Virus record (IMG/VR): IMGVR_UViG_3300030379_000158
Source of the DNA: a virus
Taxonomy: Duplodnaviria > Heunggongvirae > Uroviricota > Caudoviricetes
Length of the DNA: 64,000 bases
Strand: one strand, 5' to 3'
Shown: piece after piece, positions 48,082 to 49,355 of the stretch
How positions within the stretch are numbered: the stretch's first letter is position 1
Layout: every line of letters begins with the position of its first letter
Program-made: the position numbers and the translations under genes
The notes under the pieces: model-generated
Database searches by the model: none
Seen by the model: the letters and a program-made list of their open reading frames with translations, nothing else
Told to the model about the DNA's origin: nothing

Positions 48082-49056
48082 TTATCCGTTACCGCGCGAC
48101 GGTTTCTGCGTGATAAACGTCTCAAGCATCTTTTCCGCAATTGCCGACCAGGTGTGACACTGGACCTTTTCAGCATTTTTCACGCGATCAACGCGAGCAA
48201 TAACCTCATCCCAATCAATCCGCGACTTGATAACCATATGGTTCACCAAAGCCAGGCGATCTGGCGGAAGGCAATCTGGCGGCGTTAATATCAACGCCCC
48301 ACACATTGCCGCCTCAAGAACAGTTAATCCAAGGCTTTCGGGATGCGTAACGATAAAAACGTCACTCTTACGCAATTCAGCTGCAAATTCGGTTGCTGGT
48401 ACCGGCGTCCGTCTGTATGGAGTTACCGAAATATTCCCCGGATCAATGGTAACCAATCCGTCATCGGTCAACGTTATGGCCTCATACGGAACGGCCAGGC
48501 GCTGAAGGTTCATAAGGATACTTAAGGAGTGATCAAAACCACTAACATCAAATGCCGCATGGTCTACAAAAATACGCAGAACATCGTCTGTTTTGGTTTC
48601 CAGATGGAACAGCTCCTGATTCGCTGCCCATCCAACATGTTTGTTAAAACGATTATGACGCTCTAACCTGCCTGGATTATCCAGGTACCGCCAGGTATCA
48701 TCGCGGACAGTAAAAGTAATATCGACTGGTGCCGAATCCAGCATAGAACCGTCGTATACCTGGGCTACCCATCCAGTGAATCGACGACGCAGTTGCACGC
48801 CTATTTCCCTGGGCACCGTAGTAAAATACCTCAATCCTGGTGCCAAAATGGCCTTCGCAGAACATGCGGTCGCAGCAGTCAACACAGCTTCAACATAATC
48901 CTCCGGGCTTTCGACGCCGGGGGAATATGGACGATGGTATTGCAATGTAACCCCTGCCTCACTAAAGGCGCAGGCCAGGTTATAAGCCCACATTTCCGTA
49001 TATGTTTTCACATCACTGATAGCTTCAAATTTTCGCCCAATGATCAGGATGTTCAT
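48082..49056 (-). CDS. Putative GT-B (family-1-like) glycosyltransferase
   Basis: N-terminal MNILIIG Rossmann start; C-terminal FIVTHPESLGLTVLEAAMCGALIL resembles the GT1 E-x7-E signature. Confidence 0.45.
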   Translation of the reverse strand: MNILIIGRKFEAISDVKTYTEMWAYNLACAFSEAGVTLQYHRPYSPGVESPEDYVEAVLTAATACSAKAILAPGLRYFTTVPREIGVQLRRRFTGWVAQVYDGSMLDSAPVDITFTVRDDTWRYLDNPGRLERHNRFNKHVGWAANQELFHLETKTDDVLRIFVDHAAFDVSGFDHSLSILMNLQRLAVPYEAITLTDDGLVTIDPGNISVTPYRRTPVPATEFAAELRKSDVFIVTHPESLGLTVLEAAMCGALILTPPDCLPPDRLALVNHMVIKSRIDWDEVIARVDRVKNAEKVQCHTWSAIAEKMLETFITQKPSRGNG

Positions 49057-49355
49057 TGCGTCTCCTTTTCCCTGACTAAAAGCTCATCCAGCTTGCTTTT
49101 ATGTTTGAGCACATAGCCACATATTTTTCCTTTGGAGCTAATTTGCGGAATGGAATAATATTCCGAAAATACTAATTCAGCCTTTTCTAAGACAAGTGAA
49201 ACACCATAGCGCGCAACATGTCTGTCGGTCATTTTTGCATCACTGAGATTACCTTTAATTGATAACCAGTCGTTGAGGTACATATGGTTGCGATTGGCTT
49301 TTTTCAGCATGTTGCTCAACCAATTTTTATTACGCTTAGTTAGTTTCCGTTGCAT
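49053..49355 (-). CDS. Hypothetical protein (100 aa) coupled to ban
   Basis: Start overlaps ban stop (TAATG); AT-rich. Confidence 0.45.
   Translation of the reverse strand: MQRKLTKRNKNWLSNMLKKANRNHMYLNDWLSIKGNLSDAKMTDRHVARYGVSLVLEKAELVFSEYYSIPQISSKGKICGYVLKHKSKLDELLVREKETQ

What the first reader, a model, noticed from the sequence alone, without database searches (positions are those of the whole stretch)
48082..49355. ban operon extended by a 100-aa protein and a GT-B glycosyltransferase-like gene
The DnaB-like helicase gene is translationally coupled (TAATG) to a 100-aa ORF, which in turn overlaps (ATGA) the start of a 324-aa protein with a GT1-like signature. The rough operator-spacing comparison with P1 map units suggests about 1 kb of extra DNA in this part. 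A glycosyltransferase co-expressed with the replicative helicase could modify DNA, receptors or a virion component.
Basis: partly seen in the sequence, partly recalled or inferred. Interest (0 to 1): 0.45.

Follow-up and report, generated by a model that had tools for sequence, protein, structure and literature searches.

The report
P1 ban operon with extra small gene
This is the ordinary end of the phage P1 helicase (ban) operon: the glycosyltransferase-like gene is P1's own known, non-essential dbn gene, and the only addition is a 275-bp stretch encoding a small basic protein of unknown function that P1 itself seems to have lost.

Summary
The three ORFs and both overlaps (TAATG, ATGA) are real.

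The extra DNA relative to P1 is 275 bp, not about 1 kb. It consists only of the 100-aa ORF.

That ORF is a real gene (phrog_12809):
- It is basic (pI 9.9) and models confidently, with no solved-structure relative.
- It is present in about 11-16% of P1-type elements.
- Homologues at 33-40% identity follow the DnaB gene, start overlapping stop, in divergent P1-like elements of Cronobacter, Salmonella and Pantoea. P1 keeps a scar of it.
- Other homologues lie far from any helicase, in Avunavirus early regions and a Tn7-like element.

Inferred, not shown: Dbn acts on a sugar or glycan acceptor rather than DNA, and the small protein is a dispensable accessory factor. Interest is low to modest.

The parts
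53320..53347 (-). Bivalent C1 operator Oban, overlapping the Pban promoter. This is the start of the ban operon.
   Evidence: Two overlapping matches to the C1 operator consensus. The position corresponds to P1 68667-68694, annotated Obanab/P1ban.
49355..50725 (-). ban, a DnaB-type replicative helicase, 99.3% identical to P1 Ban. The P1-type ATG start is at 50719.
   Evidence: Pfam DnaB_C E 6e-108 and DnaB E 3e-35. Identity to P1 Ban.
49965..49992 (-). Promoter-like site inside ban, corresponding to 'P2dbn' predicted in the P1 record. P1dbn maps to 49576-49608. Both are predictions only.
   Evidence: TTGAGA-16-GATGAT found by the scan. Mapped from the P1 annotation.
49053..49355 (-). 100-aa small basic protein (pI 9.87), a phrog_12809 member. 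Its start overlaps the ban stop (TAATG) and its stop overlaps the dbn start (ATGA).
   Evidence: phrog_12809 E 8.8e-46. Homologues. AF2 pLDDT 92. pI.
49057..49344 (.). 288-bp segment absent from P1 and P7, where 13 bp stand instead. G+C is 37-41% against about 50% in the flanks.
   Evidence: Alignments. Composition.
48082..49056 (-). dbn (P7 glt), a GT-B fold, GT4-like glycosyltransferase. The E-x7-E motif is E240...E248.
48037..48059 (.). Bidirectional intrinsic terminator hairpin between the convergent genes dbn and gene 5 (baseplate). This is the end of the ban operon.
   Evidence: On the minus strand, an 11-bp stem of -17.6 kcal/mol (z -3.9) followed by UUUUCUU. The sequence is read.

Best explanation
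Shown:
- The region is the distal end of the C1-repressed ban operon of a P1-type phage-plasmid. Its order is Oban/Pban, tRNA genes, tciABC, tRNA, ban, orf100, dbn, then a bidirectional terminator shared with gene 5.
- dbn is P1's own gene and encodes a soluble GT-B glycosyltransferase of the GT4 retaining type, with the E-x7-E motif intact.
- orf100 is a translationally coupled small basic protein gene and is the only difference from P1 here.

Inferred for orf100:
- It is ancestral to P1-like ban operons, because divergent relatives carry a homologue in the same coupled position. The P1/P7 arrangement is then a deletion derivative, and the 9 extra N-terminal codons annotated on P1 Dbn are a scar of both ends of the lost gene.
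- It is a dispensable, fast-evolving accessory early protein. It probably uses a conserved basic patch (K4, R8, K10, R45, R49) to bind a nucleic acid or an acidic host or phage partner, in a host-takeover or counter-defence type of role. It is probably not an obligate Ban cofactor.

Inferred for Dbn:
- It transfers a hexose from a nucleotide sugar to a sugar, glycan or lipid-linked acceptor, as an envelope polysaccharide type of reaction. It probably does not act on DNA.
For: Identity and anatomy:
- All 18 matching phage records (P1, P7, SJ46, RCS47 and others) are 97.6-98.3% identical in nucleotides.
- The P1 and P7 annotations name dbn/glt.
- There is a single 275-bp indel against P1. The operator is, the tRNA genes and the terminator.

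Dbn fold and motif:
- The model has pLDDT 94.8 and pTM 0.90.
- H238, E240, S241, G243, E248 and G253 are invariant in 55 homologues.

Dbn acceptor:
- A 42%-identical homologue lies inside a group-2 capsule locus with KpsM/T-like ABC genes, Capsule_synth genes and Poly_export.
- Homologues at 31-35% identity lie in large phage genomes, inside clusters with sugar nucleotidyltransferase, polysaccharide pyruvyl transferase, GT8 and GT47-like genes.

orf100 is a real gene:
- phrog_12809 E 8.8e-46.
- 22 profile hits with an invariant MK(R/K)KLxxRNK motif encoded by different codons.
- The model has pLDDT 92.
- The ORF is intact in all 13 IMG/VR loci that carry it.

orf100 is ancestral and coupled to ban:
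- Homologues directly follow DnaB with TGATG or ATGA overlaps in Pantoea, Cronobacter and Salmonella P1-like elements and in phage JK004.
- P1 retains ATGCAAYGGAA and GGAAAAG from the two ends of the ORF.

orf100 is accessory and fast evolving:
- In the same elements Ban is 75-82% identical but the small protein only 33-40%.
- It is present in 52 of 471 dbn-carrying PLSDB plasmids, 13 of 80 IMG/VR loci and 0 of 18 P1-type phage records.
- ORF-positive and ORF-negative elements are interleaved on ban and dbn haplotypes.
- One Salmonella element carries a second paralogue.
- Homologues sit among small early genes of Avunavirus phages and in a Tn7-like element, away from any helicase.
Against: - No experiment bears on either function. 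dbn was non-essential for P1 plaque formation in CRISPRi, which neither supports nor excludes an envelope role.
- From general knowledge, P1 lysogens are not known to have altered LPS.
- The acceptor inference rests on one capsule locus and three related phage clusters. The family is very rare in reference bacterial genomes: 3 loci in 185,579 species representatives.
- For orf100, the conserved coupling to ban in at least 5 divergent lineages could reflect a real functional link with the helicase.
- The window's allele has a lower G+C (39%) than ban. This could mean allele replacement rather than simple vertical descent.
- The basic-patch argument is read from conservation and predicted secondary structure, not from a measured surface.
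Confidence: 0.55

Rival explanations
1. The 100-aa protein is a dedicated partner of the Ban helicase, acting as a loader, assembly factor or regulator, and is made in fixed ratio to it through translational coupling.
For: - Homologues lie directly after the DnaB gene, with the start overlapping the stop, in the window and in at least 5 divergent P1-like lineages whose Ban is 75-82% identical.
- The protein is basic and has a strictly conserved N-terminal helix.
- One homologue follows the AAA+ ATPase gene tnsC in a Tn7-like element.
Against: - It is absent from P1 and P7 and from about 84-89% of P1-type elements. From established knowledge, P1 Ban is a functional helicase that can replace E. 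coli DnaB.
- Homologues in Avunavirus phages and other phage early regions are not next to a helicase.
- No Pfam match to DnaC/IstB, lambda P or DciA (DUF721) appears even at E <= 1.
- It evolves far faster than Ban.
Confidence: 0.15
2. Dbn glycosylates phage DNA as an anti-restriction modification, in the manner of the T4 glucosyltransferases, and is co-expressed with replication functions for that reason.
For: - The gene shares an operon with the helicase, and the upstream neighbouring operon encodes the DNA methyltransferase Dmt.
Against: - Twenty-five GT4 sugar, lipid or polysaccharide enzymes score higher than T4 AGT.
- The homologues whose surroundings could be read lie in a capsule locus and in polysaccharide-type sugar clusters.
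- From general knowledge, P1 has no annotated hydroxymethylase to create an acceptor base, and P1 DNA behaves as ordinary methylated DNA in cloning and restriction work.
- dbn is dispensable.
Confidence: 0.08
3. Dbn glycosylates a protein, either a virion component or a host protein, rather than a glycan.
For: - The gene lies next to the baseplate and tail genes, although on the opposite strand.
Against: - These matches score lower than those to sugar, lipid or glycan GT4 enzymes.
- dbn is in the early, C1-controlled ban operon, not in a late operon.
- I know of no reported glycosylated P1 virion protein (general knowledge).
Confidence: 0.12
4. The 100-aa ORF is a neutral remnant with no current function, carried along in some lineages.
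For: Most P1-type elements lack it with no known defect.
Against: - The ORF is intact in all 13 IMG/VR loci that carry it, and its DNA is 95-100% identical across 52 plasmids and 80 E. coli genomes.
- Protein-level conservation holds across 33-47% identical relatives that use different codons.
- The predicted fold is confident.
- The Shine-Dalgarno sequence and the coupling to ban are kept.
Confidence: 0.1

Closest known systems
Phage P1 Dbn (AAQ14048, 'downstream of ban') and phage P7 Glt (AAQ07543)
   Same: It has the same position between ban and gene 5. It is 97% identical in protein over 324 residues and about 98% in nucleotides. It carries the same annotation, 'possible/putative glycosyltransferase'.
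   Different: In the window it starts at the Met that is residue 10 of the annotated P1 protein, and that start has its own AAGGAG ribosome-binding site. The 9 extra P1 codons look like a scar of the small ORF. The family consensus also starts at this Met.
GT4-type retaining GT-B glycosyltransferases (sucrose-phosphate synthase 6kih, BshA 6n1x, GlgM 6tvp, PimA 2gej, WaaG 8b5s)
   Different: Sequence identity is only 9-16%. A profile search finds no relative among PDB sequences. The Pfam score is below the gathering cut-off. At 324 aa it is shorter than the 354-400 aa of the best matches. Donor and acceptor are unknown.
Dbn-family member in a group-2 (kps-type) capsule locus (P0029, locus L020), and members in sugar clusters of large phages (P0036, P0044, P0052)
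   Same: They are 31-42% identical over the full length and share all invariant residues.
   Different: They are embedded among other polysaccharide genes. P1-type dbn is a lone sugar gene at the end of a replication and accessory operon.
phrog_12809, and small proteins that follow DnaB in Cronobacter phage JK004 (gene_34) and in Salmonella, Pantoea and Cronobacter P1-like plasmids
   Same: They have the same length and the same N-terminal MK(R/K)KLxxRNK motif. They occupy the same coupled position after the helicase gene.
   Different: They are only 33-40% identical to the window's protein. The genes that follow are different small ORFs rather than dbn.
Avunavirus (Av-05 gp060 and relatives) and Vibrio phage phi 3 A0A0B5H8U3, uncharacterised small proteins
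   Same: The Avunavirus proteins are homologous at 36-38% identity. The Vibrio phage protein has the same predicted fold, with TM 0.84 at 28% identity.
   Different: They lie in early regions of virulent phages, next to nucleotidyltransferase genes and not next to a helicase.

Membership tests
P1 dbn / P7 glt orthologue | High identity to P1 Dbn, and a position between ban and baseplate gene 5 | tested here: met
   96.9% protein identity over 324 aa. The flanks are collinear with P1.
GT-B fold glycosyltransferase (GT4-like, Pfam Glycos_transf_1) | Two Rossmann-like domains, with a C-terminal helix returning to the N-domain | tested here: met
GT-B fold glycosyltransferase (GT4-like, Pfam Glycos_transf_1) | E-x7-E motif in the C-terminal domain | tested here: met
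   E240 and E248 are invariant in 55 homologues that go down to 28% identity, together with H238, S241, G243 and G253.
GT-B fold glycosyltransferase (GT4-like, Pfam Glycos_transf_1) | Pfam model score above the curated gathering cut-off | tested here: not met
   23.8 bits against a cut-off of 26.4, E 3.6e-5, with only the C-terminal 87 residues matched. The P1-type representative P0005 does carry a precomputed PF00534 hit. At the sequence-model level, membership is therefore borderline.
GT-B fold glycosyltransferase (GT4-like, Pfam Glycos_transf_1) | Transfer of a sugar from a nucleotide sugar with retention of configuration | not testable with these tools
   This needs an enzyme assay.
Phage DNA glucosyltransferases (T4 AGT type) | Closest structural relatives are DNA glucosyltransferases, and a hydroxymethyl-pyrimidine pathway is present in the phage | tested here: not met
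phrog_12809 (small phage protein, function unknown) | Full-length significant match to the family profile | tested here: met
   E 8.8e-46, residues 1-100 matched to profile positions 1-104 of 106.
Replicative helicase loaders (DnaC/IstB, lambda P, DciA/DUF721) | Sequence-profile match to a loader family, and constant association with a DnaB gene | tested here: not met
   No such Pfam hit at E <= 1 for the protein or for any of its 19 aligned homologues. Homologues occur without an adjacent helicase.
HU/IHF DNA-bending proteins | Profile similarity, including the RNP-x-TG arm motif | tested here: not met
Ribbon-helix-helix antitoxins / CopG | An N-terminal beta-strand followed by two helices, forming a dimeric RHH | tested here: not met
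Known anti-phage defence system proteins (PADLOC) | Match to any PADLOC model | tested here: not met
   Neither protein gave a hit at E <= 1.

The most novel reading that the evidence does not exclude
The 100-aa protein founds an uncharacterised, structurally new family of small basic proteins of mobile elements that act on DNA-transaction machines. It would be either a modulator of DnaB-type helicases such as Ban or a counter-defence factor. The P1 reference genome would then be a deletion mutant for an ancestral member of its ban operon.
Probability: 0.2. Interest if true: 0.5.

Novelty: already known. Interest (0 to 1): 0.2.

Why it matters
There is little here for the headline claim. A glycosyltransferase gene behind ban has been in the P1 annotation since the genome was published, and it is dispensable.

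Two modest points remain.
- Dbn is now placed, at fold and motif level, among GT4 retaining transferases. Its relatives lie in capsule and phage glycan clusters. This makes an envelope or glycan acceptor the first thing to test, and gives a concrete handle on one of P1's long-standing unknown genes.
- The small gene after ban is an old, fast-evolving accessory gene of P1-like phage-plasmids, and the laboratory P1 lacks it. Work based on P1 alone therefore misses it. The natural carriers and non-carriers provide comparison material for a simple test.

Tried and rejected
- RHH antitoxin. Only the two helices superpose.
- Helicase loader families. No profile match was found.
- Defence-system component. 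There are no PADLOC hits.
- A conserved partner gene next to the small ORF across contexts. All-against-all BLASTP of neighbouring genes found none beyond lineage relatives, and revealed only a second paralogue in a Salmonella element.
- Sequence relatives with a solved structure. Neither protein has one.
- NCBIfam gave nothing useful.
- Literature searches on dbn returned only the CRISPRi essentiality table and one transcriptome remark. A survey of 77 P1-like phage-plasmids does not list the ban-dbn junction among its eight variable regions. The P1 genome paper was not in the held library.
- The scan of reference bacterial genomes for Dbn relatives returned only 3 loci, so no broad survey of genomic context was possible.
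- The AFDB fold library was not available.
- A clade test for carriers of the ORF. Carriers are interleaved with non-carriers on ban and dbn haplotypes, so presence does not define a sub-lineage.

Full report
**1. What is in the sequence**

Three ORFs lie head to tail on the minus strand:
- a DnaB-type helicase gene at 49355..50725
- a 100-aa ORF at 49053..49355
- a 324-aa ORF at 48082..49056

The helicase stop and the next start overlap as TAATG. The 100-aa ORF's stop and the 324-aa ORF's start overlap as ATGA. Both downstream starts have good ribosome-binding sites: GAGGA-6 nt-ATG for the 100-aa ORF and AAGGAG-5 nt-ATG for the 324-aa ORF.

**2. What the region is**

A 2.9-kb query around the finding matches 18 phage records at 97.6-98.3% identity. 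They include P1, P7, SJ46 and RCS47, and every match covers 90% of the query in two pieces.

In the P1 record the helicase gene is ban. The gene after it is dbn, annotated 'function unknown, possible glycosyltransferase'. P7 calls the same gene glt, 'putative glycosyltransferase'. The window's 324-aa protein is 96.9% identical to P1 Dbn, and its Ban is 99.3% identical to P1 Ban.

The window is collinear with P1 from 37196 to 58655, with one indel. Window 49057-49344 (288 bp) stands where P1 has 13 bp. The bivalent C1 operator Oban is at 53320-53347. Its distance to the end of dbn, and to the next operator downstream, exceeds that in P1 by exactly these 275 bp. Only the 100-aa ORF is.

The operon ends in a hairpin at 48037-48059, flanked by A and T runs, between the convergent genes dbn and gene 5. 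On the minus strand it folds at -17.6 kcal/mol (z -3.9) and is followed by UUUUCUU. The ban gene also contains the two sigma-70 promoters predicted in the P1 record, P1dbn and P2dbn. One of them is picked up by the scan at 49965-49992. They are predictions only.

**3. The 324-aa protein, Dbn**

At the sequence level the glycosyltransferase signal is weak:
- Pfam Glycos_transf_1 scores 23.8 bits, below the 26.4 cut-off, over the last 87 residues.
- A family profile finds no relative among PDB sequences.

I collected 74 homologues and aligned 55 of them, down to 28% identity. H238, E240, S241, G243, E248 and G253 are invariant. This is the E-x7-E motif and the segment after it in '...THPESLGLTVLEAAMCGA...', the hallmark of GT4-type enzymes.

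Genomic context of homologues gives some indication of the acceptor:
- A 42%-identical homologue lies inside a capsule locus with ABC transporter genes, two Capsule_synth genes and a Poly_export gene.
- Three homologues at 31-35% identity lie in large phage genomes with terminase and RecA. They sit in clusters holding a sugar nucleotidyltransferase, a polysaccharide pyruvyl transferase, GT8 and GT47-like genes, and methyltransferases.
- A 56%-identical homologue is on a 95-kb Citrobacter plasmid, with no Ban-like helicase detected in the 11-kb locus around it.

The family is very rare in reference bacterial genomes, with 3 loci found. In IMG/VR it is abundant, with 131 stretches confirmed as relatives, and all 80 loci kept are P1-type at 97-100% identity.

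dbn was scored non-essential in a P1 CRISPRi screen and, according to that paper's table, in earlier work (PMC10695390). A recent preprint only notes that its transcript is deregulated in an hfq mutant.

My inference, not shown, is that Dbn is a soluble enzyme adding a hexose to a sugar, glycan or lipid-linked acceptor. DNA and proteins are less likely targets.

**4. The 100-aa protein**

Several lines show that it is a real gene:
- It matches phrog_12809 over its full length (E 8.8e-46).
- An exhaustive HMMER search of 1.84 billion representative proteins finds only 6 hits. A profile search brings the family to 22 members.
- In the alignment, M1, K4, L5, R8, N9, K10, R45 and R49 are invariant, and K2, L17, M42, G51, D55, P70, S73 and G76 nearly so. 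The conserved N-terminal residues are encoded by different codons in different lineages, so the constraint is on the protein.
- The protein is basic, with pI 9.87 and 20 K+R against 10 D+E.
- Its model is confident (pLDDT 92): a long helical hairpin (residues 2-22 and 27-50), four strands and a C-terminal helix.

**5. Where the small gene occurs**

Its DNA is found in:
- none of 50,697 phage records
- 52 PLSDB plasmids, against 471 that carry dbn
- 80 of 5,426 complete E. coli genomes, 79 of them on plasmids
- 13 of 80 IMG/VR P1-type loci

Only two spacings between ban and dbn were seen among the 67 IMG/VR loci where it could be measured: 24 nt (65 loci) and 299 nt (2 loci). The ORF is intact in every IMG/VR locus that carries it. 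Carriers are interleaved with non-carriers on ban and dbn haplotypes, so recombination shuffles the polymorphism.

Homologues at 33-40% identity lie directly after the DnaB gene, again with overlapping stop and start. They occur in divergent P1-like elements of Pantoea, Cronobacter (including phage JK004) and Salmonella, and in metagenomic contigs whose Ban is 75-82% identical to the window's.

P1's 24-nt linker keeps the first 11 nt of the ORF (ATGCAAYGGAA) and a GGAAAAG from near its end, in the ORF's frame. The 9 extra N-terminal residues of annotated P1 Dbn therefore look like a scar. The Dbn family consensus also begins at the window's start.

The simplest reading is that the gene is ancestral to P1-like ban operons and was lost by deletion in the P1/P7 type. 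There is a caveat. The window's allele has 39% G+C against about 50% for its flanks, so exchange of alleles cannot be excluded.

**6. What the small protein might do**

The conserved coupling to ban suggests a helicase partner. Four points argue against an obligate one:
- P1 and most P1-type elements lack it.
- Homologues occur among small early genes of virulent Avunavirus phages, next to nucleotidyltransferase genes. They also occur in two other phage early regions, and between tnsC and tnsD of a Tn7-like element.
- It evolves much faster than Ban.
- One Salmonella element carries two paralogues.

Small size, patchy presence, fast divergence, duplication and early-operon location are typical of accessory host-interaction or counter-defence genes. 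The invariant basic residues lie in the first three turns of helix 1 and the last two of helix 2. In an antiparallel hairpin these regions are adjacent, which suggests a phosphate-binding or acidic-partner-binding patch. This is inference only. I rate the accessory-factor reading above the Ban-cofactor reading, and neither is tested.

**7. Verdict**

The finding describes real features, but its main point was already in the P1 annotation. The 'extension' is 275 bp carrying a small gene that databases already hold as a hypothetical protein in an existing PHROG. The new elements are modest:
- fold-level confirmation of Dbn as a GT4-like transferase, with polysaccharide-type relatives
- recognition that the small gene is an old, fast-evolving companion of ban that the reference P1 has lost

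Interest is low to modest.

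Noticed in passing
window 58710-59923 (+): An IS3-family insertion sequence lies in the region between the P1 upfA/mlp genes and the plasmid replication genes. It has a 108-aa orfA, and a 296-aa orfB with HTH_21 and rve integrase-core domains. P1 does not have it at this place.
   Followed up: partly
window 60675-62697 (+): The plasmid replication region differs from P1. A 306-aa Rep3-type initiator (weak Rep3_N and Rep3_C matches) stands in place of IncY repA. It is followed by a 269-aa T5orf172-domain protein. P1 similarity resumes at 62767.
   Followed up: partly
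window 34077-37196: About 3.1 kb replaces about 0.65 kb of the P1 pmgT region. It holds five minus-strand ORFs, one of them Ead/Ea22-like (35103-35792). The others have no Pfam match.
   Followed up: partly
window 23826-25537: This stretch is not collinear with P1. It holds a 372-aa antirepressor-type protein (ORF6N plus KilAC/ANT domains, 23859-24977, minus strand) and an Ash-family protein (24974-25423, minus strand). A 336-bp piece is 86% similar to the P1 ant region.
   Followed up: partly
L008 5001-5342 and 6821-7138 (Salmonella P1-like contig): There are two paralogues of the small protein in one operon. One directly follows DnaB. The other lies 1.5 kb downstream and gives BLASTP E 5e-9 against the window's protein.
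   Followed up: no
L011 5001-5336 (metagenomic Tn7-like element next to glmS): A 111-aa homologue of the small protein lies between tnsC and tnsD. This is an unusual place for an extra gene in a Tn7-type operon.
   Followed up: no
L001 4155-4181 (P1 AF234172 72659-72685): The first 9 codons annotated for P1 Dbn (MQWNEEKPM) look like the fused remnants of the two ends of the small ORF. The likely true Dbn start is the Met at codon 10, which has its own GAGGA site.
   Followed up: yes
L013, L014, L015 (large phage contigs, around 5000-10500): Dbn-family genes in large phage genomes sit in multi-gene sugar clusters. These hold a nucleotidyltransferase/mannose-phosphate isomerase-like gene, a polysaccharide pyruvyl transferase, GT8 and GT47-like genes, and methyltransferases. 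The clusters lie next to RecA and a DEAD-box helicase, which suggests a phage-encoded glycan pathway of unknown target.
   Followed up: no
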